64,000 nucleotides of DNA from Minisyncoccota bacterium. GTDB taxonomy: Bacteria; Patescibacteriota; Minisyncoccia; Phycocordibacterales; JACRKE01. Of the stretch, positions 35,320-60,586 are shown one piece after another. The position numbers and the translations under genes are program-made. The stretch lies in the NCBI GenBank assembly GCA_041660505.1, contig JBAZWG010000002.1, positions 868 to 64,867 of the forward strand. Reading direction: 5' to 3'. Position 1 is the stretch's first letter. Each line of letters begins with the position of its first letter. Under the pieces are notes generated by a model, which saw only the letters and a program-made list of their open reading frames with translations, did no database searches and was not told where the DNA came from.

Positions 35320-35381
35320 TACCCTACTATAGCAAACACTTTTTACTGTCCAAAGCTTAGCTTTGATAATTTCGATATGTG

Positions 35382-35390
35382 TGGTATAAT
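35382..35390 (+). promoter_or_regulatory. extended -10 TGgTATAAT, 6 nt upstream of the RAYT ATG (leaderless)
   Basis: gtggtataat-ttaaca-ATG. Confidence 0.45.
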
Positions 35391-35396
35391 TTAACA

Positions 35397-36077
35397 ATGC
35401 GAATTATTGAATTTTGTGCGAATGAATATTACCACGTCTTTAACAGAGGCAATAATAAACAAGTAATCTTTCGCGATGATAGCGACCGTTTCCGATTCCT
35501 GTTCGCACTGCTTTTTTTTCAGGCTCCAATCAGCTATGACCAGATTGGCAGATATATAGTGTTTTTAAAAAGGCACAGGACGGACATTAGCCAGAATGAT
35601 TCATTAAAGGATTTAGCGGAGCACGTACTGGGCAAACGCTCTATAGAATTAATCAATTTTTGTCTTATGCCAAACCATTTCCACCTTGCCGTTAAGCCAA
35701 TGAAGGATAATGCAGTGTCGCTATATTTACATAAAGTATTAACTTCGTATACAAAATATTGGAATAAAAAATATAAGGCGACGGGACACCTGTTCGAAGG
35801 ATCATTCAAAGCTGTCCGTGTTGCTGATAATGACCAGTTTTTATATCTATCGACCTATATACACAGAAACCCCGCTGAATTATCGACGTGGATTGGTCGC
35901 GAGCATGAATATCCGTGGTCGAGTCTGCAAGACTACCTTGGTGTTAATCGTTGGGGAAAACTGCTTGCGACCGAAAATATTTTAGAGCAATTTGACTCGA
36001 TTGAGGAATATCGGGCTTATGTTAACGATAGCACAGCAAAAACCGGCGATGACGACATCGAGTTTGTCCAAAGCTAA
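35397..36077 (+). CDS. REP-associated tyrosine transposase (RAYT), HUH/Y1 family
   Basis: YHVFNRGNN...IF.DD.DR.RFL.LL, HUH motif LMPNHFHL, GHLFEGSFK, catalytic-Tyr region YIHRNPAELS, and the C-terminal YPWSS motif. Start at ATG 35397 (ORF-track GTG 35379 rejected). Confidence 0.7.
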   Translation: MRIIEFCANEYYHVFNRGNNKQVIFRDDSDRFRFLFALLFFQAPISYDQIGRYIVFLKRHRTDISQNDSLKDLAEHVLGKRSIELINFCLMPNHFHLAVKPMKDNAVSLYLHKVLTSYTKYWNKKYKATGHLFEGSFKAVRVADNDQFLYLSTYIHRNPAELSTWIGREHEYPWSSLQDYLGVNRWGKLLATENILEQFDSIEEYRAYVNDSTAKTGDDDIEFVQS

Positions 36078-36094
36078 GCTTTGGACATTGGACC

Positions 36095-38326
36095 CTACTT
36101 CCCGTACATATATAATGAGTAAATCTCATTGGCCGACAACTCGCGGTTATAAATACGCACGTCATCGATTCCGCCCTTCCACGGTTCAGCCGGCGCGCCA
36201 TAATCACCAATATACATATTTACTCCGCCATCGTTATATACTCCGCCAAGATTCTTGTTATCGCTACCCACAAGTCTACCATCTATATATAAATACTGTG
36301 CGGAGTTTGTTTTTACACAGACCATATGATGCCATTTACCGTCCTTATACACATTGCTTACTGCCGGGGACGCAATGGTCGCTGCAACTCTTAGACTGCA
36401 ATACATTTGAGTACCGCCACTATCCCCCATCAATACTGCACTACCAGCAGAGTATTTTCCCAGAATAAAATAAGCGGTGGCGCCAGGGACTTGCCCTCTA
36501 TTGAACCAAGCGGAATATGTCCAACTATTCGCATTGGTTGGCCCGAAGTTGTTGCCCAGATTTACAGTATTATTAGCGCCATTCTTTGGGAAATACAACC
36601 CTTGTCCAATTTTCCCTGCAATAATACTTGTCCCTGTCACTGTCCCATTTTTCCCATTTCCACTTTTGTCTAACATTACACCGGTAGTCCTGTCCACAGC
36701 ATCAAACGTCCACCAGCCGACGAGACCATTTGTGGTGCTTTGAGCCGAGACTAGCGCTGGACTGGCTGTGACCTTCGCGCCACCGAGTGTATATAATGAG
36801 TAAACTTCATTGGCCGACAAGGCGCGGTCGTAGACACGCATGTCGTCGGCTTGCCCTGAAAAAATACCGTCTGACTCGGCGTTACCAAATACTCCAAAAT
36901 AGTAAACACTGTTTGTTATATTAGGGGTTACCGTGGTCGGAGTACCGGATATCGCCTGTAGTACACCATTCACATATATCTGCGTGGTTGTATTTGCCGC
37001 GCCGGGAGATTTAACAATGGTCACTAAATACCATTTATTTGCCGTTAATGCACCTGCGGCTGTTGCGACAGAATTGCCGGAAGCGTATTCGACCGAAACA
37101 GCCCCTGCTCCGCGCAAATTAAAGAAGGTGCCTATAGCCGCACCAGCACCACCGTTACGATCACCCGTAAAAAGACCTGCGCCGGATGTTGTTGTATCTC
37201 TCAATTTCACCCACTGCGATAAGGTTATAGACGCATTACCAGAGATGCCAGAATTATTAGCACCAAGTAGATAACATTTCTGCCCATTTGTGGTCGCTGT
37301 TGGCGTAAGCGATATTCCTCGACTTATCTTCGCGGTTACAAATTGCGGCGTGCAATTCGTCCCGCTCTGTGTTGTAAACATATGACCATTACCAGTCTTA
37401 TCTATTGTATAAGTACTCCCTGAATCTGGGGTATCGAAAGTCCACCAGCCGACAAGGCCATTCGTGGTACTCTGCGCGGAAACTTTCGTCGGGCTTGCCG
37501 TAATCTTACTTGTACCGAGCTGGTACAGAGCTTTAATCTCGCTCGCAGACAATGCACGACTATAAATGCGCACGTCGTCGATAGAGCCGTTAAAGTTATA
37601 TCCTCGTGCGTTAACTCCGCCTGGTCCCCATGGGCCGTCTGCAGCAATATCCAATTCTCCATCCGGCGCATTTTGCGAACCGGTTATCGTTGTCGGGGTC
37701 TGGGCAATTCCGTCGATGTATAAGGTTATTGTTGTACCGTTTATTGTTTCGACCGCATGATGCCATTGATTATCTCCATAGGCACCGGCGCTCGTAGAAA
37801 AAAAGTCTGTACCGTTATAGTACTCCGCAGATACTGTATTATTCGTATTCATCAATAGACCCCAAAGATAGCGGTTGGGAGCATTATTAAGCGTATCTTT
37901 TCGGAGAATCGACATTTCACCTGCCGCATTCCCGCTCGTTTTAAACCAAGCCGAAATCGTAAGCGTAGAACCCAGCCGCAGGCTTGCGCTATCGGGCACG
38001 GCGACGTATTGCGATGCACTAATTGCGCTCCATGAAGCATTAGACGACAGAGCTTGGCCGATCTTGCCCTGCACTTTACTCATGCTTGTTAATGTCCCAT
38101 GATTTGCATATAAGCTTTTATCCCTCACTTGCGAACCTGTTACGTATCCTGAATCAAACGTCCACCAGCCAACAAGGCCATTCGTCGTGCCCATCGCGCC
38201 CAGAGCCTGCGCGCTCGAAACTGCAGACGCCTCTGCCTTGCCGGCCAAAAATAGCGCAGGCAACAAAAGCAAGAGCGCGAGGAACCTAGTTAAAAGTTTA
38301 ATGCTTACGAGTGTCACAATTTTCAA
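36095..38326 (-). CDS. secreted protein with four LamG-like (concanavalin A-like lectin/glucanase, Laminin_G_3-type) domains
   Basis: Signal peptide. Four repeats of TNGLVGWWTFD ... DDVRIY(S/D/N)RALSA(S/N)EI..LY. 743 aa. Starts 18 bp downstream of the giant gene stop, so likely the same operon. Confidence 0.8.
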   Translation of the reverse strand: MKIVTLVSIKLLTRFLALLLLLPALFLAGKAEASAVSSAQALGAMGTTNGLVGWWTFDSGYVTGSQVRDKSLYANHGTLTSMSKVQGKIGQALSSNASWSAISASQYVAVPDSASLRLGSTLTISAWFKTSGNAAGEMSILRKDTLNNAPNRYLWGLLMNTNNTVSAEYYNGTDFFSTSAGAYGDNQWHHAVETINGTTITLYIDGIAQTPTTITGSQNAPDGELDIAADGPWGPGGVNARGYNFNGSIDDVRIYSRALSASEIKALYQLGTSKITASPTKVSAQSTTNGLVGWWTFDTPDSGSTYTIDKTGNGHMFTTQSGTNCTPQFVTAKISRGISLTPTATTNGQKCYLLGANNSGISGNASITLSQWVKLRDTTTSGAGLFTGDRNGGAGAAIGTFFNLRGAGAVSVEYASGNSVATAAGALTANKWYLVTIVKSPGAANTTTQIYVNGVLQAISGTPTTVTPNITNSVYYFGVFGNAESDGIFSGQADDMRVYDRALSANEVYSLYTLGGAKVTASPALVSAQSTTNGLVGWWTFDAVDRTTGVMLDKSGNGKNGTVTGTSIIAGKIGQGLYFPKNGANNTVNLGNNFGPTNANSWTYSAWFNRGQVPGATAYFILGKYSAGSAVLMGDSGGTQMYCSLRVAATIASPAVSNVYKDGKWHHMVCVKTNSAQYLYIDGRLVGSDNKNLGGVYNDGGVNMYIGDYGAPAEPWKGGIDDVRIYNRELSANEIYSLYMYGK

Positions 38327-38344: not shown

Positions 38345-41300
38345 TTACGGCGTCGTACTCGTCGCATTTGGGTCTATTACGTTAACTATTCTTATCTGTT
38401 CGATGGCATTATTACCTGAATTATCTACTGCGTTATATTTAACCTCATGTGTACCGGCTAATGTTGTGTCTATCTGATCGCCTGTCGTGACTATGCCGAG
38501 ATTATGATCTACGTTGTCTGTAACTGTTGCGCCCATGTCGCTGTAACTCGAGCCCATGTTTATTGTAGATGGGTTGAGGCCGAGCATTGTGATGACCGGA
38601 GCCTCTGTGTCTGCTGGCGGGGTCGAAGTACCAGCAGGCGCCCCGGCTGGGGCAGTTCCTGCCACGCACTCCCCTGCTACGCTGGCGACGAGGCCACTTG
38701 ACACCTTCAAACAATACGGATTGCCTGTCGTGTCGTCATATAATGTGACACCTATCGGGTTTACTGACGAGCCAACCTTCATACTCTTTAACACGTTTAA
38801 GTCTTGTACCACCAATCTGCCGTTCTCGTCCAAGCTCCAGTTGCCCGAGGCAGAAGCCAGACTCTTTATATTGACTATTGCTTGCCCTTGCAGGTCGAGT
38901 ACGCGCGCTGTTGCGAGCTTCATATAACCCGTACTTTGATCTACTACCCAGTCTGAACTCACGGCGCCGTCTGCAATACCCGAAGAAATATTCTGATAAC
39001 CAAGATTGACGAAGACAGTAATACTGCCTGTCTGTGAATAAGAGCCGTCGGGTAGAGTGCCGCTCCAAGGCTCAAGGGCGATACCAACAGTCTGGCCGGA
39101 GGTCGTCGCCTTCATACCGATACCTGCCGCCGATGAAAGCGTGATGTAGTCACCAACCGCAATATCCCCTCCTTCAAGGTTAACTTTAGTCGGCACGCGA
39201 CCAGAGAGAGCCACGGGACGCGAAGTACTCGCCGTAAACTCCGAACTTGCACCACCGAGCAGAACACCGGGGTCAGTAGATATGATTCCTATTACCGGTA
39301 TGATAGTAGAACTTGCCTTTCTCACAACAAGAGTCGAGGTAGAAGTATCCAACGATACTAAGTCACCCGCCGAGATAGTCTCGTCCGTTATTTTGTAACT
39401 CTCTGCCAGGTCCACGGTTTGCGTCGAAGCTCCTCGAGAATAAATCTGTCCTGCCGGTACAGAACTACATGCTACCGTAGCGGAACTCGTTGACACGCAA
39501 AGACCGGAACCAGTCCCTGTTCCGTAAACTTCGAGCTTCGCCCCTGGCGTCGTCGTCCCGATACCGACGTTGCCCCCCTGTGCCTGAAAAGCGATATTCT
39601 GATTATATCCCGTGTTCTGCTGTATTCCTTGAAATTCAAAGACATTTGAGGCATTGGACATTGTAACCTGTAGTTGCTTTTGTGTTGTCCCCTGCTGATT
39701 TCCAAACTCCATAAGTTTAACGCGGTCTGTTGCAGTCTCGCTTACTGGAGAGATAACTCCATTCACGCTTAGCTTGTAGTTAGGTGTGGTTGTCCCGATG
39801 CCTACGTTGCCCGCGTTTGTTATTGACAACTTCTCCGAGCCTTGTACCGCTAACCCCATGGTTGCTCCTGTACCTCTTGCGTCTAAGAACGCTTTACCAG
39901 CATTACTCGTGTATATAGACAGACCAGTAGCGGCAGCAGCGGAGAAGGTGTTGTTGCCAATTACCAATCCATAAGGGCTATCATCATCTCCTGTTATTTT
40001 TAGCAGTTGTGTTGCGGCTGTCCCACCATCAAGAATTTCAAGTTTTGCCGAAGGACTCGTCGTCCCGATGCCGACGTTGCCATTCTGTTGTATTCTCATC
40101 TTCTCAGCATTAGCTGGTGAGAATGAGATATAGTTTCCAGTACCAGCAGAGTAGTTGGTTTGGAAATCAAGTGAATTATCACCAGCGTCATTGAAGGTTA
40201 TTTTGGCATACTGTCCCGCTACTCCTGCGCCCAAGTTATCCAAAACGATTTGCGGATTGCCGCGAGTCCCCTCGTGAATTGAAAGTTTAGCCCACGGAGT
40301 TGTGGTTGCAATTCCGACATTACCATTCGTATCTATCATCACTTGGTCAGTATTTGAATAGGAGTCTGACCCTTTTCCAAAAAACATTGTCCCATTACTA
40401 CTCTGTATGTAGCGATGATGCAAACCAGATACGGCATCGGTATCAGAAAGATAAAACATTGGGGCGATATTGGCGATATTTAACAAATATGCTGGCGTCG
40501 TCGTCCCGATACCGACGTTGCCGTTTCGGAGCACTGTGAACGATGTCGTTGTTGCCGTTAATGTTGAGCTGGCCACCGTGAATATCGGCTGGGTGCCGTC
40601 AACATTGCTGTCGCTTGTGTTGGCGGAGACAGAGAGTTTGGCCCATGGGGTTGTGGTGCCGATACCGACTAGCCCGCCGGAGGTGATACGCATGGCTTCG
40701 GTCATTGCGGTGCTATTGTTGGTACTGAAAGCTAAGTAGCCAAGTTGATTGTTTGTTGTAGAGTTTTCTTTAAACCCAACGATGCTGGCGAAATTTCTGA
40801 TCGATGAGGGGATTAATGGTACATCGTCTTTATAACCACCGAAGGCGATAGAGCCACCGGTATCTACAGCTTGGGAATTATTCGATCGTATCAATAATTG
40901 TCCCGTAGCGGTACGCGTCGGGACGGTGCTCGAGCCATAGATATCAAGCAGAGCTAGCGGCGTCGTCGTGCCGATGCCGACATAGCCACTGCGGAGGATT
41001 GTAAATAATGAATTGGTGGCGCTGGCGGTAGAGCTCGCAACGACAAAGAGCGGGGTGGCCATGTTGGCAGAGGAGTCGGTCGTATTGCCTTGTATCGAGA
41101 GTTTAGCAAATGGTGAGGTAGTGCCGATGCCGACAAAACCATTAGTGGTGAATTGGCCTGTGCTTGTGGTGGTGGCGTTGCCGTTCACGGTCAAAACAGA
41201 TGTTGATGTTGTGCCTGTTGTAGTGAGGTTGGCGTTGGTGCCAGAGGAACCAATGAGAACGCCACCGGCAAAGTTGGCGGCGACGCCGTTCGGGTTGGTA

Positions 41301-44300
41301 ATTGGATAGCTGACAATAACAATACCGGAACCGCCACCGCCACCCGCGCCTCCTTCTGTAGCACCGCCACCTCCACCGCCCGAGTTAGTGGTTCCGGCAG
41401 TACCAGCACCAGAAGTACCTCCTGCGCCACCGCCACCAAGCCCTCCAGAACCTCCGCTTTGAAGATCGCTGGAGCCACCACCACCGCCACCATAGTAGAC
41501 GGTGGTTACACCATCGCTAATAGCGGTAGTTGTGCCTATTCCGCCGACGCCGGCGGCTGCATCTGACCCATTACTACCAGTAGCACCCGCTCCGCCACCA
41601 CCACCGCCACCATTATTCTGTGCCGCTCCGCCACCATTATAGCCTTGCCCCGAAGTACCGTTACCGCCTGATTGACTGCCGGCACTGGCAGCACCGCCAC
41701 CAGAACCACCATCGCTACCAGCCCAAGTGAACGCTTGAGAACCTCCCTTACCTCCTCCTGTGGCCACTACAGTACCAAACTGCGAATCGCCTCCGTTAGT
41801 ATTAGTGCTACCGGTAGCACCCGCTCCGCCAGCACCGACTACTACTGTTATGCTTTGAGAAGGCGTCACCGCGTATGAATATCCGTTACTAGGTCCGCCG
41901 CCAACAACTCCTCCTCCACCTCCTCCACCGCCATCAACCCACGAAGTAACGCCGTTCTTGCCTCCACCGCCACCACCTGCCACCACGAGCACCTTAACGC
42001 TGGTTACACCACTACTTGGAACGGTAAAAGTGACAGACCCGGTATTGGTAAATGTATGAACCCTGTAGGTCTGTCCACCTGACGTATAGGTAGTGACGGT
42101 TCCTTGATTGTCTGTAGCCGATGGCGTTGAGCCTACTGCATTAACATCGAGTGAATATGCCGGCGTCACAACGCCGATGCCGACGAGGCCTGCGGACGTG
42201 ATAGTTGTTGTTGCAGTTCCTCCAAACCACGACTGATCGTTGACGGAAAGTTGAGTTGTCGAAGCATTAGTAAACGTGGCTTGGCCGGTGACTGCGAGCG
42301 TGCCGGATAATGTCGTTGCGCCGGTGACGGAGAATGTGCCACCAACGGATGTGTCGCCGGAGACAACGAGAGCTGATGTGCTTGCTGTGCCCGTCACCGC
42401 CAGATTCGTCGTCGTGGCGTTGGTGCCTGTGGCATTCACGAAGGTGAAGTTTTGGAGGGTGGTGCTACCTGTGAGCAAGATGTTGGTGGCGGTGAGGAGA
42501 CCGTTATTAAGAAGCGTAAGCCTCTCGTTGTTCGCGAAGTCGGCGAAGGCGAAGAGTCTGCCGGTGTCATTGGTGCCGAAGCCGTTGACGGCGAACTTGG
42601 CGGATGGCGAGGTTGTGCCCACGCCGACACGGTCGGAATATGAACTGCCGGTGCCGTCGGCAAGAGCGTAGACCGTGAGGGTGGAGGTAGCACCAATGCC
42701 AGCCGAGAAGCCGAGCTCGGTACCGGAGGCGAGCGTTGTCGAGGCGAGAGGCATATTGATCCAATCAATGAGACCGGCGTCGGCCTCGAAGGATTGCGAG
42801 CCGGTGATGAGCTGGGCAATGGTGGTTGAGCCGGTGTTGTCTATAGAGAAGAGCGTGGTGGAGGCACTGTCTGTGACTTCGAAAGCTCGGCCTGATGACG
42901 TGGCTGTGCCCCAGATGGTAACCTTGGCATATGGCGAAGTGGTGCCGATGCCGACGTTGCCTGTCGATGAAATGTAGATGGAAGAGGTGGCCTGTGCTAC
43001 TCCCGCATCGTTACCGACGAGCAAGAAGCCTTTCGTAAGATTGAGAGTGGTGAGAAGTGAGGATGTGGCAGTTGAATACAATCCGCCGGTAGAAGTAAGT
43101 GATGCAAAACCGGATGTGTAAGAAGAGAATGTCGCGTTGCCGGAGACTATGAGCGCGGATGTGCTTGCGATGCCCGTCACCGCCAGATTTGTCGTTGTCG
43201 CATTCGTGCCCGTGGCGTTTGCGAAAGTAAAGTTCTGGAGAGTAGTTGACCCCAGTGTAAAGATATCGCCGAGATAATTCACAGAGAATTTGGTGGAGGA
43301 TGCGACTTTCATATCTAGCAACATACCGGAGAAACCGGCTAGGGCATCGGTGCCGATAACTGTGCCCGTGGTGGAGAGTTTTTCGACAGAAAGTAGGGCG
43401 TATGGTGATGAGGTACCAATGCCCAACAAGCCTTCGGCGGTCACTGCGCCGAGAACCGTACCAGAACCATTTTGCCATTCTTGCAGATCTGCTGTTTGGC
43501 TTGTGATGCCTTGTACGATCAAACCTTTTTCACCGACCTCAGCAGTGCTGACGTGAAGTTTAGCGAGCGGTGTGGCATGCGAGGTGGCGGTATTGCCGAG
43601 AACAAGGGAGCCTATGAAGATCCAATCTGATTGGCTGGCGCTTATATTGAGTTTGTAATATCTATAGTTCTGTGCTGTACCTAGGGCATATGTTCTGATT
43701 TCACCAGAGCTCCAAGCGGGAACATTTGTTTGTGTATTCAAAACAGTCCATGCCGAATTGTCGTTTGAACCCTCGAATGTCCAAGTTTTTGGCCCATAGG
43801 TGTAATAAGTGGTATACGAGTCTGCCTGGATTTTATATTGATTTACAGTTGTATAGGTTCCCAAATCAATTTTCAACCAACCTGAAGTACCATTAACACA
43901 CCACGCCGTCGAAGAATCTGAATCAAAAGATTGCCACGCAGAACAGTTGACCTCTGTAGACGCACTTGCCACATACGGCGAAGGGGCGCTGTCGCTCGTC
44001 AAGAATGTCGGGATCTGAACATTTGCCGGCGTAGAACCAATAGCTAAGCGAGAGTTTATCGAGTCAAAATACATGATGCTGTTATTCTGACTGACTGCTC
44101 CATTAGCACCAATATACGGGACAGAGCCAGAAGTAAGCGCGGTAAGCGAGAGCGTACCGCCAACCGTTGAATTGTCGCTGACGATGAGCGCAGAAGTTGA
44201 TGCTGTACCCGTGACTGCAAGGTTGGTGGTTGTCGCATTGGTACCCGTAGCATTGGCGAAAGTGAAGTTCTGCAATGTAGTTGATCCCAACGTAAAGATG

Positions 44301-47300
44301 TCGCCAAGATAATTTACGGAGAACTTGGTGGATGAGGCGACTTTGAGATCAAGTAACGTACCGGTAAATGTTGATAATGAATCAGCGCCAATGACGGTGC
44401 CTGAAGAAGATAGATGTTCGATAGAGAGACGAGCATATGGGGTTGAAGTGCCCATTCCGATCAGGCCGTTATAGAATGATGTGAAGATAGGGGCGGAACT
44501 TGTGGCGTTTTGTAATGAAAATATGGAGATACTTTGTGAACGAGAGGTCGTAGCGTTGAGCGAGAAGAAGCCGTTCACATTCAGACTGTTCCAAAGTCTG
44601 GTATTCCCCGCCACTTCGACATTGCCGGATGAGAAAATGTCGCCGGAGTAAATTGATGATGCGCCGGAGTCGGCCTCGGCAAGAGTACTGCTTGAGTAAG
44701 CGAAGCCGATCATGTCAAGAGTACCAGCCAGCATTGTGCGCGCCAATGATGAATATTCAACAGATGAAAGTGCGGTCGTACCGCCATCATTTGTTCCGGC
44801 GATGGCATAAACATAACCATTTACAACAAGAGATGTGTGATATTCCCTAGCACCGCTAAATGGCGTAGCGGTGAGCGTCGTCCACGCGCCGAGAGTGCCA
44901 TTTGCATATATCTTGGCATATTCGATGGAGGAAAGGTTGCCGCCGCCGATACCGCCCATCGCGTACAAATATCCGTTTGCCACCACGGCGGATAACGCTC
45001 CTCTGGCTGTATTAAGAGGAGTTGCGGTGAGCGTCGTCCACGCGGCCAGCGTGCCGTCGCTGTTTATCTTCGCTGACTCTACCGACGATATGGACGTTCC
45101 ACTTGTTATTCCACCAATTGTATAAATATATCCTCCAACAACAACTGACGCGTGAATATTTCTGGCTGCGTTAAGCGGTGTCGCCGTTAGGGTCGTCCAT
45201 GTACCAAGCGTACCGTCACTATTTATCTTCGCATATTCGACGGTAGCGGTATCGCTTATGCCGGTACGACCGCCCATAACATATACATAACCGTTAGAAA
45301 CTACGGAGGCGTGCGCGTATCTGGTGATATTTAATGATGCCGTCGTTTTCCACGCACCGAGCGTGCCGTCGCTGTTTATTTTTGCGTATTCGACAGTATT
45401 AACCTGTACTCCACCTGTACCATTACCACCGATGGCGTAGACATATCCGTTGGCGGCGATAGAACTGTGCTGATATCTTGTGATGGTAAGCGATGACGTT
45501 GTTGTCCACGCACCAAGTGTGCCATTACTGTTTATCTTGGCATATTCGACAGATGAAAGCCTGGTACCGTTGTATCCACCGATGGCGTAGACATATCCGT
45601 TGGCGGCGACTGATGTCTGTTGGTAACGAGTCGTGCCTAGAGATGATGACGTTGTCCACGCGCCAAGTGTGCCATCATTGCCGGAGTTGAGCGCAATTGT
45701 TTTCTGCGCAACCGATACCGGATACACAGGGGATGAAGTCCCGATGCCGACGTTGCCGCTATTCTGCTGGACAACGAATTGCGATGTGCCAACTGTTAAG
45801 CCGCCCGTTGAGAATGTGGAAGTGGCGGTGGTGGAAGTAATTGCGAGCACGCTCGTTGTACCGATTGATGCGGTAAAATTCTGGAGCGTGGTACTGCCCA
45901 GCGTAAAGATATCACCGAGATAATTCACCGAGAACTTGGTGGAGGATGCGACTTTGAGATCGAGCAATAGGCCGGAGAAGCCGGTGAGCGCATCTCCCGC
46001 GATAAGCGTGCCGGCAGAAATCCCGTCGACGGAGAGCTTGGCGTAGGGCGTTGAGGTACCGATACCGACGTTACCGGCAGTACCTTCTATCACCATGCTG
46101 GTTTGCGGTGTTGCAAACATGTCTCTCGGAGTAGTTAGGAACCGAATTGCTGTTGGTACGGTGTCACCATTGTCTTCGGCTTGTTTCGCGGCGACAATAT
46201 CCAAGACTCGCGCATAACGACCCGCAGACGGATAATCTATTACATAGTTATATGAAAATGTGGCTCTGTCGTCCGCCAAATAACTCGGCAAACTCGTTCC
46301 TCCATATCCTCTGAATATTTTTATATCTTTACCATAAACGTCTAAACCTGCAGTGGGACTTTCGGTCCCTATTCCTACGTTGCCGCCGCGTGTTACAACA
46401 AAGTTAGTTGTTGTAGCAATATCGGTTGAGGATGATATCAAGAAGAGCGGTGCGATTAGGTCTAGATCGGAAGTGTTGCCACTCACAGAAAGTTTCGCGT
46501 AAGGCGAAGTGGTACCGATGCCGACGAGGCCAGTATCGGTGATGGTCATCCGCTCGGCACTGGCGGTTACGAATCGAAGGAAGTCGTCATCACCGGCGGT
46601 GATGTAGGTGGTCTGGGCGGCGTTGATGACACCGCCTAGGCCTTGCCAGACACTGTTGTCGCCGAAGCCTTCGAACTGGTGCGTCGTTGTGTTGTAACGG
46701 ATCTGGCCGGCAAGCGCCATGCCCGGTCTCTGGGCTGTTGTGCCAATTGGGAGATGGACTGCGTCGGTGGCGTAGATGTCGAGACTCGTGGCCGGTGTTG
46801 AAGTGCCAATGCCGATGCGACCGCTTGATGACTGGACGATGAATTGGCCGGAACCGATATTAAGGCCGCCTGTCGCGAACGTCGATGTAGCTGTTGTCGA
46901 TGTCGCAGTGAATGACGAGGCGACCACTTCGCCCATAACAGAGAGCGGTGCATATGGCGAGCTGGTGCCGATGCCAACATTGGAATTGCGGTAGATGTTG
47001 GAGCCGTTCACCGTCCAATTGGAGAATACTGCCGCAACACCATTCTGGAGTAATGAACCAGTGATGTTGATATCGCCCGCCACATCGAGCGCATGTTCGG
47101 GAGAAGTAGTGCCAATGCCGACAAGGCCGGTGAAGATGGCGCCAGTGCCGGTGGTGGTGCCCGTAAGTGTCCCGCCACCAAGCGGCAGATACCCGGAGAT
47201 TGTGCCCCCGCCGGTGAAGGTGCCGGAGATGGTGGCATTGGTGATGGTAACGCCGTTCAATGAATCGATGCGATTAGAGAGACTGATGGCGCGATAGTTG

Positions 47301-47833
47301 CCGGCATCGACAGCGGCGCCATGCGAAGCGTTGGCGTAGATGAGGGCTGTGAGTTTGTTGTCGAGCTGGTTCAGCTTGGTAGCCAAGTCACTTGATGTAA
47401 CACCGGAACTTGTTTGTTGGTAAATGATTGTTGGTTTGGTTGTTGTAACGGTTCTCGCGGGCGCACTGCCGATGACAGAAATCTTGCCCGCCAAACTATT
47501 GACTTGATCACGTAATGCTTGTATATCGCTGTTTACAGTTGTAGTTGACAGAGTATCAGATATCGTGGCAATGTCGGTGACTTTTTGACTGATAACAGGG
47601 GTGGTAACTGTGACTGTCGGAGAGGGCTTTTGGACCTGCGGAGAGAAGAAGGAGATGAGCGACGTTTGAACGCTATTGAATATGTCCCCTATCGTACTGC
47701 TGATGCTTGCCATATATTGGCTAGGTAGAGCCGTATATTCATTGACGAGGGAGGCGTGAGCTAGCGAAAAATTTGCAATAAAAAAGACGGTTAAAACCGC
47801 AAAGTAAACTACAAATTTTCGCACCGAATGCAT
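38345..47833 (-). CDS. giant secreted multidomain surface protein (3162 aa). It has tail-fibre-like GIGT repeats, a Kelch-type beta-propeller, a discoidin (F5/8 type C) domain, a Gly-rich domain, a tail-fibre-like C-terminal module and an Ig-like (DUF5011-type) domain.
   Basis: Signal peptide [27 protein letters not shown]. About 20 copies of G(N/L)VGIGT(T/S)(S/T)PxAKLxV. About 6 YVYAIGG Kelch blades (aa ~715-1060, nt ~44650-45690). Discoidin-like [31 protein letters not shown]...YRYYKL (aa ~1290-1415). Gly-rich [14 protein letters not shown]... (aa ~1955-2175, nt ~41320-41960). [19 protein letters not shown] module (aa ~2808-2990). C-terminal Ig-like [31 protein letters not shown] (nt ~38380-38610). 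No C-terminal TM or sortase signal. Confidence 0.85.
   Translation of the reverse strand: [3162 protein letters not shown]
42300..46000. repeat. three to four near-identical ~250-300 bp direct repeats inside the giant gene
   Basis: Copies around 45860-46000, 44160-44350, 43140-43330, and a partial copy at 42300-42480. They encode (G/M)LLD(L/M)[46 protein letters not shown]. They are potential recombination or size-variation substrates. Confidence 0.7.
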
Positions 47834-47886
47834 ACATTAATTATACTAAAATATGACCACGTTTAGTACGCATTTCCGAGACATGT

Positions 47887-47928
47887 TGTGGATAATTAAT
47901 CCTTATTCTGTAAGGGTATTTATCCACA
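47887..47928. promoter_or_regulatory. pair of perfect DnaA-box 9-mers in inverted orientation
   Basis: tgtggataa at 47887-47895 (TTATCCACA on the minus strand) and ttatccaca at 47920-47928, 24 bp apart, in the divergent intergenic region between the giant gene and the priA-like gene. TTGACA at 47931-47936 is adjacent. Confidence 0.5.
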
Positions 47929-47986
47929 GGTTGACATTTTTATTCGGTTGGTACTTTTCTGGCCGAAAATAGGGTACAATCACCTC

Positions 47987-49669
47987 ATGCAGGTCATCAC
48001 ACTTATCCCCATCGTCCGTGGTATCGGCAAAGACGAGCTTACCTACTTCTCTACCCTGCCTGTCAAGGTCGGCGACATTGCCACTGTCACCATCAACTCG
48101 CGCGAAGTGCGCGGGATAGTCACGGACGTACTCGACGCGAGAACGGCAAAGAATTCTGTGAAGCGCGGAGACTTCGCGCTAAAGAAGGTTCTGAAGATCG
48201 AGCCGGGATTTATTGCACCATCTGTCATTTCTGTAGCAAAAGAAACTTCTGATTATTTCGCTTGTTCAGTGAGTCAGGTTCTCGGCTCGATGTACCCCAA
48301 AAACGTACTAAACGAAGTTGAAAGTAAAAAGTTGCCGTGCCTGCCGGCAGGCAGGAAAGTTGAAAGGAATCACCCCTCTCCTTCGGGGAGGGGCCGGGGT
48401 GGGGTTGCAATCGAAGGAACCCGGCAAGATCGTTTTGTTTGGATTCAAAAAAACTTAATCAAGAGGAATATGAAAGTCTTATATATTTCACCATCGAATC
48501 ATGAACTAGCAAAAGCTAAAAAAGTTTTCAATGATACTGAAATTATTTGCGTATCGCCGGAATATGGCTTTGTATGGCTACCTTATGTCGATACGATAAT
48601 TTTAGATAACGAAAGTGGCGCTGGCTATCATGATAATTCACGGGCACAAATAGATTTTAAAAAAGTGTACGAATTTCATGCGCTGGAAAATAAACAGCAA
48701 ATAATTTTCGCTGATAACGTGCTTGATCTCAAATATTTCGCAAATCCAAAAAGTGGCCAACATCGGGTGTTGACCACTTTTCCAAAAGTTATGGTGGTAA
48801 AAAAGGAAAAAACTGCTCTGCATAATTCTTGGCTCGTGAGTAAAGAAGCAGTGGGATTGACGGAAAAAATACTTGCAAAAAATTCTAGAATGTTCTTCTT
48901 CGCTCCACGTAAAAGTATCGCGAGTATCACCGTATGTGGTGATTGCGGCGAAACCGTGCAGTGTGAGACTTGCAAACGGCCACTTATGCTCGCACGCAAG
49001 AATGGTAAACGAATATTCATCTGCCAAAAATGCTCTCAAATCACGCAAGTAGATATATCATGTGCAAGCTGTAATAGCTGGAAGTTGAGACCCCTGGGTG
49101 TGACAGTTGACTCTGTCGCTGATGAGCTGGAGCGATTATTTCCCAAGGCGACCGTCTTGCGAGTGTCGGGCGACATCACAAAGACCAAGACCCAACTTGC
49201 AAAAATCATCAAACAATTTTATGCCACATCCGGCGCGCTGCTCGTCGGCACCGAGCTTGCGCTCCCCTATCTCGAACAGCTAATTTCTTATTCTGTAATC
49301 TCCAGTATCGATTCGTTTTTATCAGGCAGAAGTTTGTCAGGTACGGACAAAGCCGCGCGAATTATCTTTGAGGTTGCAACCCTTGCCCATGAAAAAGTTT
49401 TAGTAGAAACAAGCGACCCACACCAGCAATTTTTTCAAGATATTTCTGATGGCGGAGGTTTAACCTCCGCTATGCTAAAAACATATCGCGAACATGAACT
49501 TGCAGAAAGAAAAAAGTTTAACTATCCGCCATACAGTATTATCATAAAAATAAATTCAGAAATATTTTTTATAAATAAAGAGAAGTGGCCGGACGCAGAA
49601 CTCGTCGCGAGAATTCGCGCGTTGCCAAAGGGCTCAACCTACACCATAGACGCAAACAGTGTCGTGTAG
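47987..49669 (+). CDS. primosomal protein N' (PriA)-like, with degenerate helicase ATPase motifs
   Basis: Start set at ATG 47987 (TACAAT 6 nt upstream; ORF-track TTG 47948 rejected). N-terminal 3'-DNA-binding domain. PriA Cys-rich zinc-binding region CGDCGETVQCETCKRPL...CQKCSQ...CASCNS is collinear with the E. coli PriA CHDCG..CPRCD..CHHCD..CPSCG region. Walker A GxTGSGKT is absent (YISPSNHELAKAK instead), and DEEH is replaced by DNES (IILDNESGAGY). It carries an in-frame REP-like element at 48301-48360. Confidence 0.6.
   Translation: MQVITLIPIVRGIGKDELTYFSTLPVKVGDIATVTINSREVRGIVTDVLDARTAKNSVKRGDFALKKVLKIEPGFIAPSVISVAKETSDYFACSVSQVLGSMYPKNVLNEVESKKLPCLPAGRKVERNHPSPSGRGRGGVAIEGTRQDRFVWIQKNLIKRNMKVLYISPSNHELAKAKKVFNDTEIICVSPEYGFVWLPYVDTIILDNESGAGYHDNSRAQIDFKKVYEFHALENKQQIIFADNVLDLKYFANPKSGQHRVLTTFPKVMVVKKEKTALHNSWLVSKEAVGLTEKILAKNSRMFFFAPRKSIASITVCGDCGETVQCETCKRPLMLARKNGKRIFICQKCSQITQVDISCASCNSWKLRPLGVTVDSVADELERLFPKATVLRVSGDITKTKTQLAKIIKQFYATSGALLVGTELALPYLEQLISYSVISSIDSFLSGRSLSGTDKAARIIFEVATLAHEKVLVETSDPHQQFFQDISDGGGLTSAMLKTYREHELAERKKFNYPPYSIIIKINSEIFFINKEKWPDAELVARIRALPKGSTYTIDANSVV
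48301..48360 (+). repeat. REP/MITE-like element in frame inside the priA-like gene. It is AAGTTGAAAG-flanked, with a 14-bp perfect palindrome gcctgccggcaggc.
   Basis: gaagttgaaagtaaaaagttgccgtgcctgccggcaggcaggaaagttgaaagg encodes ...NEVESKKLPCLPAGRKVERN.... A second GC hairpin (cccctctcc-ttcg-gggagggg-like) follows at 48372-48395. It is near-identical to the minus-strand copy at 51549-51583. Confidence 0.7.
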
Positions 49670-49678
49670 TATAGTAGG

Positions 49679-50254
49679 GTGATGAAAGTGATGTTGGATG
49701 GCGCACCGGTACTGCGCGAAAAAGCAAGAGAAGTACCTGTACCGGATATCAAAAAAGGCTTATATAAAGCCATGGTTGCAGACATGCAGGCTACGCTCCT
49801 GAAGTGCCACGATGGGGTAGCCTTGGCCGCCCCGCAGGTCGGCAAGAGCATCAGATTATTCGTAATATCGCCAAAAGTATTTCAAGCCGAACAGGAGTTA
49901 GGAGATGGGAGATCGGAGTTAGGGAAATCCAAAACCGTATCCCCCAAACTCCAAACTCCTAACTCCCAACTCCCACGCCTCGTCTACTTCAACCCTAAAA
50001 TAAAAAAAGTTTCTGCCAGTAAAAAAGATCTCGATGAAGGCTGCCTCTCGGTGAACGGCCTCTATGGCAAAGTCCCGCGCAGTACAAAGGCGCTGATTGA
50101 AGCCTACGACGAATACGGTATGAAGTTTACGCGCGGAGCATCGGGCCTGCTCGCGCAAATCTTCCAACATGAAGTCGATCATCTTGATGGCATTCTCTAT
50201 ATCGACAAAGCATCGGAACTCAAGCAATTAGAAAGTAGGAAAACAGATGCTTAA
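49679..50254 (+). CDS. def: peptide deformylase, carrying an ~28-aa repeat-encoded insertion
   Basis: GVALAAPQVG, EGCLSV and QHEVDHLDG motifs are intact. The segment ELGDGRSELGKSKTVSPKLQTPNSQLPR lies between the conserved VIS and LVYFNP blocks, where E. coli Def has only ~8 residues. Confidence 0.9.
   Translation: MMKVMLDGAPVLREKAREVPVPDIKKGLYKAMVADMQATLLKCHDGVALAAPQVGKSIRLFVISPKVFQAEQELGDGRSELGKSKTVSPKLQTPNSQLPRLVYFNPKIKKVSASKKDLDEGCLSVNGLYGKVPRSTKALIEAYDEYGMKFTRGASGLLAQIFQHEVDHLDGILYIDKASELKQLESRKTDA
49911..49987. repeat. imperfect hairpin element built from GGAGTTN / AACTCCN heptamers, in frame inside def
   Basis: Left arm gggagatcggagttaggg, a ~20-nt loop, right arm ccaaactccaaactcctaactcccaactccc. 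Confidence 0.65.
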
Positions 50255-51164
50255 TTCGAATGGAAGTTGGGAGTTGGGAGTTGGGAGTTGGGGAAAATAC
50301 AACTTCGTATTTTTTGGTACTTCTAACTTCGCCGTCATAGTTTTAGACGAGCTCAAGGCCGGCGGCTATCTACCGAGTTTAATTATTACAGTGCCTGATT
50401 CCCCGCAGGGCAGAAAGCAGATAATTACTCCTTCACCGGTTAAACTCTGGGCAATTGAACATAATATCCCTATCGAACAACCCGAGAAACTCCTAACTCC
50501 CAACTCCCAACTCCTAACTCCTAACCGTGACTTCGGCATTGTCGTTGATTACGGCAAAATCATTCCGCAGAAAATTATAGATATCCCGAAACACGGACTT
50601 CTGAACGTACACGTGTCTCTTTTGCCAAAATTTCGCGGGGCTTCGCCAATGCAAACAGCAATACTTGAAGGCGAAGCAGAGACCGGCGTAACTATAATGC
50701 AAGTGGTAAAGGGGCTCGATGAAGGCGATATAATTGCACAAGAAAAATTTGATTTGGCTAACTGGCACCCGTATTTTCTTGAACTTGCAGACAAAACCGC
50801 ACATGCCGGCGGTAAATTGCTTGTAAAAATTCTGCCGGATTATCTCGCCGGCAAAATTACACCAATTAAACAAGATAATTCTAAGGCAACTTTTACGCGA
50901 AAATTCGAGGTGCAAGACGGTTTTATAAAACCTGAAATCGTGCTGGGCACAGAGACTGGAGAATTGGCGCAAAAAGCAGAAAGAAAAGTCCGTGCCCTGA
51001 ATCCAGAACCCGGCACCTGGACCGAGTTAAAAATAAGAAATACGGCTCTACGTATAAAGATTCTGAAGGCGCACTTAGAAGTAGATAAATTTATACCCGA
51101 CACTGTAATACCCGCCGGCAAGAAAGAGATGTCGTGGCAAGACTTCAAAAACGGGAATCTGTAA
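50247..51164 (+). CDS. fmt: methionyl-tRNA formyltransferase
   Basis: Start ATG 50247 overlaps the def stop (ATGCTTAA). VFFGTSNFAV, HVSLLPKFRGASPMQ, and a C-terminal domain. The N-terminal 13-aa extension SNGSWELGVGSWG is encoded by (AGTTGGG)4. LLTPNSQLLTPN is encoded by (AACTCCN)5. Confidence 0.9.
   Translation: MLNSNGSWELGVGSWGKYNFVFFGTSNFAVIVLDELKAGGYLPSLIITVPDSPQGRKQIITPSPVKLWAIEHNIPIEQPEKLLTPNSQLLTPNRDFGIVVDYGKIIPQKIIDIPKHGLLNVHVSLLPKFRGASPMQTAILEGEAETGVTIMQVVKGLDEGDIIAQEKFDLANWHPYFLELADKTAHAGGKLLVKILPDYLAGKITPIKQDNSKATFTRKFEVQDGFIKPEIVLGTETGELAQKAERKVRALNPEPGTWTELKIRNTALRIKILKAHLEVDKFIPDTVIPAGKKEMSWQDFKNGNL
50254..50286. repeat. (AGTTGGG)4 tandem heptamer repeat at the fmt 5' coding end
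   Basis: gaagttgggagttgggagttgggagttgggg. Confidence 0.75.
50491..50529. repeat. (AACTCCN)5 tandem heptamer repeat inside fmt (reverse complement of the 50254 repeat family)
   Basis: aactcctaactcccaactcccaactcctaactcctaacc. Confidence 0.75.
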
Positions 51165-59827: not shown

Positions 59828-60586
59828 CTAGATTTGTTTGCGCGCATTGCCGGCGATGCTACCGCCTTCATTCGCCACCGCCTTATTCTCGTCTAAATTT
59901 TTCGGTTCGCGCTTTCCGGAGATTTCTGTCGTTGCCGTTTCTGCGAGCATATTCAAGACCAGTTCCAGATTGGTCATATTGTCCCGCAGATTTTCTTTCT
60001 TTAAATCTTTGAATTTTTTGTATTCTCTCGTGGTCATGCCGGTCCAAGCCTTTGAGATTTCGTCAGTCAAAATAGCGAATTCCAATCCTTCTTTGACACC
60101 GCGCTTTTCCCATTCATCGGTCAATGCTTTGCGAATTTCAATACTTTTTAGTCTCTGGTTCACCCACTCTGGGCTGTATCCTTTTTGTAAATATGTTTTA
60201 AGCGCACGATTAATAGTAAGCTCTGGGTCAGCAGTCTCTTCGAGCCGTTCATACCCTACCTGTGCGAGCCAAAGCTTAAATGGCTCTGCGTTAGGAGAAG
60301 GAATTGACTGGATAAGCCTAAGTATTGTTTCTGTGTCGGCCGCGTCGGTTTCTCTTTGCTTTCCGTCCTCTGCTAACATTTTCAACCGGTGACATTTTGT
60401 CACCACTTCACTTCCTTCTTCTTTTAATCGCTGTGCCAGTTTATTCCAATACTTTCTAGGGTCGGTACTCCCGGCCAACACTCTCACAACATCAACCACG
60501 GAAAAATACCAAAGCTCGTTATCTTCGTCCCAATGTCGACGTATTTGTGCTCCTTCGAAAATAGCGACTGCTTTATTCCTTTTCAT
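59828..60586 (-). CDS. DinD-like protein (Bro-N domain), paralog 2
   Basis: WYFSVVDVVRVL, IQSIPSPNAEPFKLWLAQVGYERL, LTDEWEKRGVKEGLEFAILTDEI and LELVLNMLAE are collinear with the 31037..31894 protein. Confidence 0.65.
   Translation of the reverse strand: MKRNKAVAIFEGAQIRRHWDEDNELWYFSVVDVVRVLAGSTDPRKYWNKLAQRLKEEGSEVVTKCHRLKMLAEDGKQRETDAADTETILRLIQSIPSPNAEPFKLWLAQVGYERLEETADPELTINRALKTYLQKGYSPEWVNQRLKSIEIRKALTDEWEKRGVKEGLEFAILTDEISKAWTGMTTREYKKFKDLKKENLRDNMTNLELVLNMLAETATTEISGKREPKNLDENKAVANEGGSIAGNARKQI

What the first reader, a model, noticed from the sequence alone, without database searches (positions are those of the whole stretch)
47887..47928. Two perfect DnaA-box 9-mers in inverted orientation between the giant-protein operon and the priA-like gene
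TGTGGATAA and TTATCCACA are both exact matches to the DnaA box consensus TTATCCACA, one on each strand, separated by 24 bp. They sit in a 150-bp divergent intergenic region that also holds a TTGACA hexamer and the promoters of both flanking genes. A single exact 9-mer is expected about once per 130 kb of random sequence, so two within 42 bp is unlikely to be chance. They could mark DnaA-dependent regulation of priA or the giant operon, a DnaA titration site, or part of an origin-proximal region. dnaB and recR are about 30 kb away.
Basis: seen in the sequence. Interest (0 to 1): 0.55.

Follow-up and report, generated by a model that had tools for sequence, protein, structure and literature searches.

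The report
Conserved DnaA-box pair before giant-protein gene
Two exact binding sites for the replication initiator DnaA sit at a fixed distance upstream of a giant surface-protein gene in several uncultured Paceibacteria, which suggests that DnaA controls this gene rather than marking a replication origin or regulating priA.

Summary
TGTGGATAA (47887-47895) and TTATCCACA (47920-47928) are the only perfect DnaA boxes in the 64-kb window, inverted and 24 bp apart. The genome is a Candidatus Paceibacterota (CPR) MAG.

The pair is the core of a ~50-bp conserved element: TGTCAA-N1-2-TGTGGATAAATA-N21-TTATCCACA, read on the giant-gene strand. It lies 41 nt upstream of a perfect TATAAT that sits 6 nt before the ATG of the 3162-aa surface-protein gene, so that mRNA is probably leaderless.

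The same element, with the same 24-bp spacer, precedes the orthologous giant gene in three other Paceibacteria contigs whose flanks have diverged. In two of them other genes separate it from priA. Six priA loci without an adjacent giant gene have no boxes upstream of priA.

So the element belongs to the giant gene's promoter, not to priA. Nothing supports an origin: no box cluster, no dnaA/dnaN, no skew switch.

The most likely function is a DnaA operator that ties giant-protein expression to replication status. In this genome it may also affect the divergent priA-def-fmt operon. DnaA binding is inferred, not shown. This is a new member of a known kind and moderately interesting.

The parts
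47887..47895 (-). Promoter-proximal DnaA box (TTATCCACA on the minus strand). Spans about -62 to -54 from the inferred giant-gene transcription start.
   Evidence: Exact consensus match. Conserved in L005 and L006; one mismatch in L003 (TTATCCCCA).
47896..47919 (.). 24-bp spacer. Its length is invariant in four genomes. It contains an inner inverted repeat, CCTTA (47901-47905) and TAAGG (47911-47915), and an A/T-rich conserved core.
   Evidence: 10 of 24 columns are invariant in alignment A1, including ATA next to the distal box and ARAATA in the centre. The inner repeat is shared with L006 only.
47920..47928 (+). Promoter-distal DnaA box (TTATCCACA on the plus strand). Spans about -95 to -87 from the giant-gene start and about -67 to -59 from the priA-like start. 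The conserved 5' extension TAT (47917-47919) makes it TATTTATCCACA.
   Evidence: Exact match. The 12-mer TGTGGATAAATA is invariant in all four genomes.
47931..47936 (+). Invariant TTGACA hexamer, 1-2 bp beyond the distal box. Its role is unresolved. It could be part of the operator, or the -35 of a weak rightward promoter.
   Evidence: Invariant in four genomes. No conserved -10 lies 15-19 bp downstream. In L003 and L006 it faces the 3' end of a convergent LamG gene. The promoter scan finds no promoter using it.
47840..47845 (-). Perfect TATAAT -10 of the giant gene, 6 nt before the ATG. This implies a leaderless mRNA starting at about 47833.
   Evidence: TATAAT-N6-ATG is invariant in four genomes. 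Many other genes in the window have a -10-like hexamer 6-9 nt before the start codon and no Shine-Dalgarno sequence.
38345..47833 (-). Giant secreted or surface protein gene (3162 aa) with Kelch repeats, a Gly-rich domain, an F5/8 type C domain, a bacterial surface Ig-like domain and an N-terminal signal sequence. It is the conserved partner of the element.
   Evidence: ORF. Pfam domains. N-terminal 210-300 aa are 40-43% identical to the genes next to the element in L003, L005 and L006.
36095..38326 (-). Laminin_G_3 (concanavalin-like lectin) protein gene, 18 bp downstream of the giant gene. Probably in the same operon.
   Evidence: Pfam. Related LamG genes lie in variable positions around the element in L001, L003 and L006.
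47975..47980 (+). TACAAT -10 of the priA-like operon, 6 nt before the ATG at 47987.
   Evidence: Sequence. L005 has TACAAT at the same 38-nt distance from TTGACA.
47987..51164 (+). Divergent operon: priA-like gene (47987-49669), def (49679-50254), fmt (50247-51164). It neighbours the element here and in L005 only.
   Evidence: Pfam and NCBIfam. Synteny in related loci.

Best explanation
The two 9-mers are high-affinity DnaA boxes that form the core of a conserved upstream operator of the giant surface-protein gene. Read on the giant-gene strand, the layout is TGTCAA, 1-2 nt, TGTGGATAAATA, 21 nt, TTATCCACA, 41 nt, TATAAT, 6 nt, ATG.

Shown: the boxes are exact. Their sequence, their 24-bp separation and their distance to the -10 are kept in four Paceibacteria genomes while the surrounding DNA has diverged. 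The element travels with the giant gene and not with priA.

Inferred: DnaA monomers occupy both boxes, which are centred 33 bp apart, about three helical turns, and so lie on roughly the same face of the DNA. The two monomers may be bridged through DnaA-DnaA contacts and bending of the A/T-rich conserved spacer. This complex, centred at about -58 and -91 from a leaderless transcription start, would modulate RNA polymerase at a promoter that has a perfect -10 and no recognisable -35. Expression of the 9.5-kb giant gene and the LamG gene behind it would then depend on the amount or nucleotide state of DnaA, that is, on replication status.

In this genome and in L005 the same complex sits at about -63 and -96 from the divergent priA-def-fmt promoter and may affect it too.

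The sign of regulation, activation or repression, cannot be read from the sequence. The L005 copy is shifted by 6 bp relative to the -10, which argues against a strict face-of-helix activator geometry.
For: - Exact boxes that are unique in the window.
- The same architecture in L005 (2486-2527), L006 (1224-1265) and L003/L129/L130 (2830-2871): an identical 24-bp spacer, with 53, 59, 53 and 53 bp between the giant ATG and the box.
- In alignment A1, 33 of 50 element positions are invariant, against 3 of 45 in the distal flank and 5 of 41 between the box and the -10.
- The genes next to the element are orthologous, with N-termini 40-43% identical.
- Six priA loci without an adjacent giant gene have no perfect box upstream of priA.
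- Leaderless organisation is common in this genome, which fixes the approximate transcription start.
- CPR genomes use the canonical box. dnaA upstream regions in L010, L112, L123 and L124 carry 3-4 perfect TTATCCACA each.
- DnaA acting as both activator and repressor through promoter-proximal boxes is established (PMC8203912, PMC11317965).
- Two further Paceibacteria contigs carry an isolated perfect pair with the same spacing just upstream of a TATAAT promoter. In L027 the downstream gene is a 995-aa surface Ig-like protein. In L103 it follows pilB-pilT-pilC and begins MKKNKG.
Against: - No binding or expression data exist.
- dnaA of this genome was not seen, because it is outside the window.
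- The CPR DnaA sequences examined are mostly from Microgenomates, not Paceibacteria.
- In E. coli, stable DnaA binding in vivo mostly needs two direct boxes 2-3 bp apart, and most lone consensus boxes are unbound (PMC11317965). Here the boxes are inverted and 24 bp apart.
- The 9-mer that follows the distal box (TTGACATTT) matches the consensus at only 3 of 9 positions.
- Besides the boxes, 10 of 24 spacer positions and the TTGACA hexamer are invariant. DnaA alone does not explain this, so a second factor may be involved.
- Only four independent genomes carry the element.
- L027 and L103 were found by searching for this exact pattern, so they are not independent evidence that the 24-bp spacing matters.
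Confidence: 0.6

Rival explanations
1. The element is the operator of a different DNA-binding protein, or of DnaA together with a second factor. That protein would recognise the extended palindrome, the conserved spacer and the TTGACA flank. The match to the DnaA box would then be coincidental or only partly relevant.
For: Conservation extends beyond the 9-mers: the ATA extension, 10 of 24 spacer positions and the invariant TGTCAA. In L027 the pair lies between a surface-protein gene and a divergent TrpR-family regulator gene.
Against: Both half-sites match the 9-bp DnaA consensus exactly in three of four genomes. Any DnaA with canonical specificity would bind them. A 33-bp centre-to-centre distance is too long for a simple dimeric helix-turn-helix protein. 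No regulator gene is next to the element in the window or in L003, L005 or L006, and the window has no TrpR-like gene.
Confidence: 0.15
2. The pair is a DnaA-binding site whose main role concerns DnaA itself or chromosome organisation. It would be a titration site or a datA- or DARS-like site, comparable to the DnaA-box clusters of B. subtilis, rather than a transcription control.
For: These are the only two perfect boxes in 64 kb. DnaA-box clusters outside oriC that influence initiation timing are known (PMC3245932). The A/T-rich conserved spacer could hold a DNA-bending protein, as at datA.
Against: The fixed distance to the giant gene's -10 in four genomes, and co-movement with that gene, point to a promoter-linked role. 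Two boxes is fewer than in known titration or reactivation loci. The two roles are not mutually exclusive.
Confidence: 0.12
3. The inverted repeat acts through a DNA cruciform or an RNA hairpin, for example as a terminator or insulator between the upstream LamG/pilin operon and the giant gene in L003 and L006.
For: The 61-nt segment folds better than shuffles (-9.8 kcal/mol, z = -3.6). In L006 the inner hairpin is followed by a run of T.
Against: The arms are conserved in sequence rather than covarying. The single change in L003 (TTATCCCCA) is not compensated. The inner stem is absent in L005 and L003. There is no T tract after the stem in the window, and the terminator scan does not call it. 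In the window and in L005 nothing is transcribed into the element from upstream. No Rfam family matches.
Confidence: 0.05
4. The site is oriC or part of it.
For: Perfect DnaA boxes lie in a divergent, A/T-rich intergenic region next to a replication-restart gene. The mreB/priA divergence point is syntenic in Paceibacteria.
Against: There are only two boxes and none with one mismatch within 75 bp except one inside priA. No DnaA-trio-like repeats are visible. dnaA and dnaN are not in the window. GC skew is positive to the left and slightly negative to the right, and genes turn back to the minus strand after 51 kb. The same syntenic divergence point has no boxes in L007, L008, L253 and L254. In CPR genomes where dnaA was seen, the perfect boxes found lie immediately upstream of dnaA.
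Confidence: 0.04

Closest known systems
DnaA as a transcription factor acting through promoter-proximal DnaA boxes (E. coli dnaA, nrdAB, guaBA, mioC; B. subtilis dnaA, sda, ywlC, yydA; reviewed in PMC8203912)
   Same: Consensus TTATCCACA boxes lie in a promoter region outside oriC, there is more than one box, and the position relative to the core promoter is conserved.
   Different: The target is a giant surface-protein gene in a CPR bacterium, not a replication or nucleotide-metabolism gene. The boxes lie upstream of the core promoter (centres about -58 and -91) and do not overlap it. Binding and regulation are untested.
E. coli 'double DnaA box' (Stringer, Fitzgerald and Wade 2024, PMC11317965)
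   Same: Two boxes appear to be needed as a unit, and the spacing is fixed.
   Different: The E. coli unit has two boxes 2-3 bp apart, modelled in tandem. Here the boxes are inverted, with the TTAT ends facing inward, and 24 bp apart. No second box abuts either one in the double-box arrangement.
B. subtilis DnaA-box clusters outside oriC (PMC2533591, PMC3245932)
   Same: They are intergenic, often lie between divergent genes, bind DnaA stably, and regulate neighbouring genes and/or titrate DnaA.
   Different: According to the cited ChAP-chip paper those sites are DnaA-box clusters. This element has exactly two boxes plus a conserved spacer and flank.
Borrelia burgdorferi DnaA as a regulator linked to changes in surface-protein profile (PMC9879097)
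   Same: It links the replication initiator to gene expression in a host-associated bacterium with a reduced genome.
   Different: That paper concerns the dnaX-ebfC operon, and I took only its title and abstract from the search listing. No comparable box-pair architecture is known to me.

Membership tests
DnaA box / DnaA-binding regulatory site | 9-mer matching the TTATCCACA consensus | tested here: met
   Two exact matches. Conserved in three other genomes, with one mismatch in one copy.
DnaA box / DnaA-binding regulatory site | The organism has a DnaA whose domain IV keeps the base-contacting residues | tested here: inconclusive
   dnaA is not in the window. Attempts to read the rest of the contig failed. 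Other CPR DnaAs keep DHTT..H and the R399 equivalent and have perfect boxes upstream of dnaA.
DnaA box / DnaA-binding regulatory site | DnaA binds the site, and transcription of the neighbouring gene depends on it | not testable with these tools
   Needs EMSA or footprinting, a reporter assay, or ChIP.
DnaA box / DnaA-binding regulatory site | Conserved position relative to a promoter | tested here: met
   41 nt (47 nt in L005) between the proximal box and an invariant TATAAT-N6-ATG.
Chromosomal origin oriC | Cluster of several DnaA boxes (typically three or more, including degenerate ones) | tested here: not met
   Only the two boxes. The nearest one-mismatch box is at 48003, inside priA.
Chromosomal origin oriC | Adjacent unwinding element or DnaA-trio repeats | tested here: not met
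   No trinucleotide-repeat array or long A/T-rich block next to either box by inspection. The A/T-rich stretch is the giant-gene promoter.
Chromosomal origin oriC | GC-skew sign change and switch of gene orientation at the site | tested here: not met
   Skew is +0.12 to the left and about -0.01 to -0.06 to the right. Genes are again on the minus strand from 51 kb.
Chromosomal origin oriC | Linkage to dnaA/dnaN or another conserved origin neighbour | tested here: not met
   No dnaA or dnaN within 64 kb.
E. coli-type double DnaA box | A second box 2-3 bp from the first, in tandem | tested here: not met
   The 9-mer that starts 2 bp after the distal box (TTGACATTT) matches 3 of 9 positions. The 9-mers before it match no better (own inspection).
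datA / DARS-type DnaA-regulating loci | Three or more boxes in a defined arrangement plus an IHF or Fis site | tested here: not met
   Two boxes only. No WATCAANNNNTTR-like IHF motif in the spacer. Binding of a bending protein is not testable here.
Intrinsic terminator / structured RNA | G+C-rich stem followed by a U tract, with covariation in the stem, or a match to a known RNA family | tested here: not met
   Not called by the terminator scan. The arms are invariant rather than covarying, and the L003 change is uncompensated. No Rfam hit.

The most novel reading that the evidence does not exclude
In episymbiotic Paceibacteria, DnaA may double as the master switch of a small cell-surface regulon. 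Inverted pairs of perfect DnaA boxes 24 bp apart sit upstream of promoters with a strong -10 for the giant putative adhesin (four genomes), for an Ig-like surface protein in a Nomurabacterium (L027), and for a probable pilin gene after pilB-pilT-pilC in another Paceibacterium (L103). Building the host-attachment apparatus would then be coupled directly to the decision to replicate. The conserved spacer and TTGACA flank would recruit a second, unknown architectural factor.
Probability: 0.2. Interest if true: 0.65.

Novelty: new member of a known kind. Interest (0 to 1): 0.42.

Why it matters
Almost nothing is known about gene regulation in CPR/Patescibacteria, and I found no paper that mentions DnaA boxes in them. 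Their giant surface proteins are prime candidates for host attachment. A conserved, exactly spaced DnaA-box pair in front of such a gene gives a concrete and cheap hypothesis to test: the replication initiator couples growth state to the surface apparatus. The test needs only a 75-bp DNA fragment and one recombinant protein, with no cultivation. The result also warns against reading isolated perfect DnaA boxes as origin markers in these genomes.

Tried and rejected
1. priA as the regulated partner. Rejected as the conserved target, because the element stays with the giant gene when the two are separated, and six other priA loci lack boxes.
2. oriC. Rejected on box number, skew, gene orientation and absence of dnaA/dnaN.
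3. A universally preferred 24-bp geometry for inverted DnaA-box pairs.
   - The genome scan gave more than 120 loci in many phyla, against about 9 expected by my own calculation from the size of the collection.
   - Only one spacing was scanned there. An unbiased sample of spacers of 10-40 bp in viral contigs showed N24 once in about 120 pairs, and that sample was dominated by unrelated families with N32, N37, N21 and N23.
   - So 24 bp is specific to this family, not a general rule.
4. TTGACA as the -35 of a conserved promoter. No conserved -10 follows it, and in L003 and L006 it faces the 3' end of a convergent gene. Left unresolved.
5. Hairpin, terminator or known RNA. No covariation, no T tract, no Rfam hit.
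6. A local regulator. The TrpR-like gene next to the L027 pair has no counterpart in the window.
7. Extending the contig to look for dnaA. Two look-ups with end-proximal proteins found nothing on record.
8. Finding more giant-gene orthologues with the N-terminal 308 aa. Hits came only from the repetitive Gly/Thr-rich part. None aligned to the first 120 residues, and the one candidate contig (L131) has a run of N upstream.
9. A specific pattern scan of metagenome contigs found only the L003 species again.
10. Homology between the window ORF 35379-36077 and the small genes that precede priA in L007 and L008. None found.

Full report
**Observation.** The window reads ...catgt TGTGGATAA ttaatccttattctgtaagggtat TTATCCACA gg TTGACA ttttt... 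at 47882-47941. The two 9-mers, at 47887-47895 on the minus strand and 47920-47928 on the plus strand, are the only exact matches to TTATCCACA in the 64 kb. Shuffles give a mean of 0.48 exact matches per window. No other pair in any orientation appears, even when up to three mismatches in total are allowed. From the shuffle rate I calculate about 1e-4 expected pairs lying within 42 bp of each other.

**Context.**
- The window comes from a Candidatus Paceibacterota (CPR) MAG. The priA-like product equals NCBI protein WC764_04075, which lies on a 72.7-kb contig.
- To the left, on the minus strand, is a 3162-aa protein gene (38345-47833). It has Kelch repeats, a glycine-rich domain, an F5/8 type C domain and a bacterial surface Ig-like domain, plus a signal-peptide-like N-terminus. 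A Laminin_G_3 gene follows it.
- To the right is a priA-like gene followed by def and fmt.
- The rest of the window holds cell-wall, division, tRNA-synthetase and replication genes, including dnaB and recR at 18-20 kb. There is no dnaA or dnaN.

**Promoters.**
- On the giant-gene strand a perfect TATAAT (47845-47840) lies 6 nt before the ATG.
- On the other strand TACAAT (47975-47980) lies 6 nt before the priA-like ATG at 47987.
- Many genes in the window show a -10-like hexamer 6-9 nt before the start codon and no Shine-Dalgarno sequence. Leaderless transcripts therefore appear to be common here, and the transcription starts can be placed at about 47833 and 47987.
- The boxes are then centred at about -58 and -91 for the giant gene and at about -63 and -96 for priA.
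- Neither promoter has a recognisable -35, and the simple promoter scan calls neither. Other genes in the window do have TTGACA-like -35 hexamers at 16-17 bp from their -10.

**Comparative evidence.** I fetched PriA homologues and their contigs.
- L005 (PriA 48% identical) has the same arrangement as the window upstream of priA: TGTGGATAA, 24 nt, TTATCCACA, ta, TTGACA, 38 nt, TACAAT. The spacer sequence has diverged.
- L006 (PriA 36% identical) and L003 (61% identical; L004, L129 and L130 are the same species) also have the pair with a 24-bp spacer and TTGACA. There it is not next to priA. Two LamG genes (L006), or a pilin-like gene and a LamG gene (L003), lie between the element and priA.
- In all four genomes the gene that starts next to the element is the orthologue of the giant gene. 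Their N-termini are 40-43% identical over 210-320 residues.
- The distance from that gene's ATG to the nearer box is 53, 59, 53 and 53 bp.
- In alignment A1 the invariant blocks are TGTCAA, TGTGGATAAATA, ten spacer positions, TTATCC.CA, TATAAT and ATG. That is 33 of 50 positions in the element, against 3 of 45 in the distal flank and 5 of 41 between the box and the -10.
- Six priA loci without an adjacent giant gene (L001, L007, L008, L252, L253, L254) have no perfect box upstream of priA. Five have none anywhere in the 8-22 kb fetched.
- The element therefore belongs to the 5' control region of the giant gene. Its adjacency to priA in this window is a local circumstance.

**Is the binding protein DnaA?** This is inferred, not shown.
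- dnaA of this genome is outside the window, and I could not reach the rest of the contig.
- Indirect support comes from CPR contigs found by the pattern scan. The regions directly upstream of dnaA carry 3-4 perfect TTATCCACA boxes in L010 (Microgenomates OLB23, dnaA-dnaN confirmed by Pfam) and in L112, L123 and L124.
- CPR DnaA proteins keep the DHTT..H motif and the arginine that aligns with E. coli R399, the residues that read the box in the E. coli domain IV complex. The E. coli sequence and the residue roles are from my memory of PDB 1J1V.
- A protein with that specificity would bind two perfect boxes.
- Two things temper the claim. In E. coli, stable binding in vivo mostly needs two boxes 2-3 bp apart, modelled in tandem, and most lone consensus boxes are unoccupied (PMC11317965). 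The inverted 24-bp arrangement here is a different geometry.
- Conservation also extends to the spacer and to TTGACA, which DnaA alone does not explain.

**Mechanism proposed.** Two DnaA molecules bind the boxes, 33 bp centre to centre, roughly on the same face of the DNA. They possibly interact across the A/T-rich conserved spacer. The complex modulates a promoter that has only a -10 and drives a leaderless giant-gene mRNA. Expression of the surface protein and of the downstream lectin-like gene would then follow DnaA level or nucleotide state. In the window and in L005 the divergent priA-def-fmt promoter is placed almost symmetrically and could be co-regulated. Whether the effect is activation or repression is open. 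The 6-bp shift in L005 argues against a strict face-of-helix activator geometry.

**Rivals.**
- An origin is unlikely. There are two boxes only, no unwinding-element or trio-like repeats, and no dnaA/dnaN. The GC skew tracks gene strand and does not switch at 47.9 kb. Genes are on the minus strand again from 51 kb. The same syntenic mreB/priA divergence point in other Paceibacteria has no boxes.
- A hairpin or terminator is unlikely. The arms are conserved in sequence rather than covarying, and the L003 substitution is uncompensated. There is no T tract and no Rfam match.
- A different or additional DNA-binding protein remains possible (about 0.15).
- So does a primarily DnaA-titrating or architectural role (about 0.12).

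**Wider scans.**
- The pattern TGTGGATAA-N24-TTATCCACA occurs in more than 120 genome loci across many phyla. About 9 would be expected by chance, by my own calculation from the size of the collection. Only 19 of the 120 loci fetched are next to dnaA.
- Many are isolated pairs. One Streptomyces family lies at the 5' end of a DUF4192 gene. A family of perfect 42-bp palindromes occurs in Actinomycetota.
- This does not make 24 bp a general rule. In an unbiased sample of spacers of 10-40 bp in viral contigs, N24 occurred once in about 120 pairs.
- Two Paceibacteria hits are suggestive. L027 (Nomurabacteria) has an isolated pair 29 nt upstream of TATAAT of a 995-aa surface Ig-like protein gene. 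That protein shares the Ig-like domain with the giant protein. L103 has a perfect 42-bp palindrome 36 nt upstream of TGATATAAT, after a pilB-pilT-pilC operon and before a gene that begins MKKNKG.
- These hint at a regulon of surface genes. They were selected by the search pattern and are only leads.

**Verdict.** It is best explained as a DnaA operator of the giant surface-protein gene. It is not an origin, and it is not a conserved priA control. It is a new member of a known kind, promoter-associated DnaA boxes, in a lineage where no regulation has been described. I found no paper that contains both 'DnaA box' and 'Patescibacteria'. Interest is moderate.

Noticed in passing
window, many gene starts (e.g. 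15697 +, 49679 +, 59731 -, 62033 -, 47833 -, 47987 +): A -10-like hexamer (TATAAT, TATACT, TAGAAT or TAGTAT) sits 6-9 nt before the start codon, and Shine-Dalgarno motifs are mostly absent. This suggests that leaderless or near-leaderless mRNAs are the norm in this Paceibacterium.
   Followed up: partly
window 47987-49669: The priA-like protein (560 aa) keeps the 3' DNA-binding domain, the Cys-rich zinc region and the C-terminal part of PriA (aligns to PDB 4nl4 residues 321-657). It has no Walker A motif and scores 121 bits against a cut-off of 230 for TIGR00595. Its Paceibacteria relatives likewise hit only the 3'BD Pfam family. It may be an ATPase-dead PriA.
   Followed up: partly
window 38345-47833: GC skew flips sign inside the giant gene at about 42 kb, from about -0.09 to +0.17 on the plus strand. 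This presumably reflects different amino-acid composition in the two halves. It produces a false cumulative-skew minimum that could be mistaken for an origin.
   Followed up: no
L003 2905-4197, L006 1386-5812, L001 1104-5948, window 36095-38326: Laminin_G_3 genes, and in L003 a type IV pilin-like gene, occupy different positions and numbers around the element and priA in each genome. The region looks like a hot spot for shuffling of surface-protein cassettes.
   Followed up: partly
L018 7033-7074, L039 1157-1198 and about 35 other Streptomyces/Actinomycetota loci: There are two conserved families of isolated perfect inverted DnaA-box pairs with a 24-bp spacer. One lies at the 5' end of a DUF4192 gene. 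The other is a perfect 42-bp palindrome (TGTGGATAACTCTAGAGGTCTAGACCTCTAGAGTTATCCACA) between a methyltransferase gene and an M55 D-aminopeptidase gene.
   Followed up: partly
L112, L123, L124 (records titled 'uncultured Gammaproteobacteria'): These carry a DnaA 48-50% identical to a Patescibacteria DnaA. L123 has nearly the same dnaA upstream region as Microgenomates OLB23 (L010). They are probably mislabelled CPR genomes. L124 is a 938-kb complete chromosome.
   Followed up: no
L010 1522-2664: The DnaA ORF of Microgenomates OLB23 is 380 aa with no domain IV hit, whereas close relatives are about 450 aa with PF08299. It is probably truncated or frameshifted in that assembly.
   Followed up: no
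viral contigs L132-L251: Several phage or viral contig families carry inverted perfect DnaA-box pairs with family-specific spacers (N32 with an internal TGTCCACA-like box, N37, N30, N23, N21). This suggests recurrent use of host DnaA by these elements.
   Followed up: no
L034 3578-3619 (Saccharibacteria): An isolated perfect pair with a 24-bp spacer lies between two minus-strand ORFs (3733-4383 and 2636-3199). From their N-terminal sequences I read them as probable rplA and rplJ; no family search was run on them.
   Followed up: no
L003 7803-7811: A single perfect DnaA box lies just upstream of a Y1 transposase gene that is inserted between fmt and the S30AE gene. That position is uninterrupted in the window.
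   Followed up: no
window 31037-31894 and 59828-60586; 28720-29784 and 34294-35397: The window has two BRO-N domain proteins and two MreB paralogues. The second MreB next to holB-frr-rseP is syntenic in other Paceibacteria.
   Followed up: no
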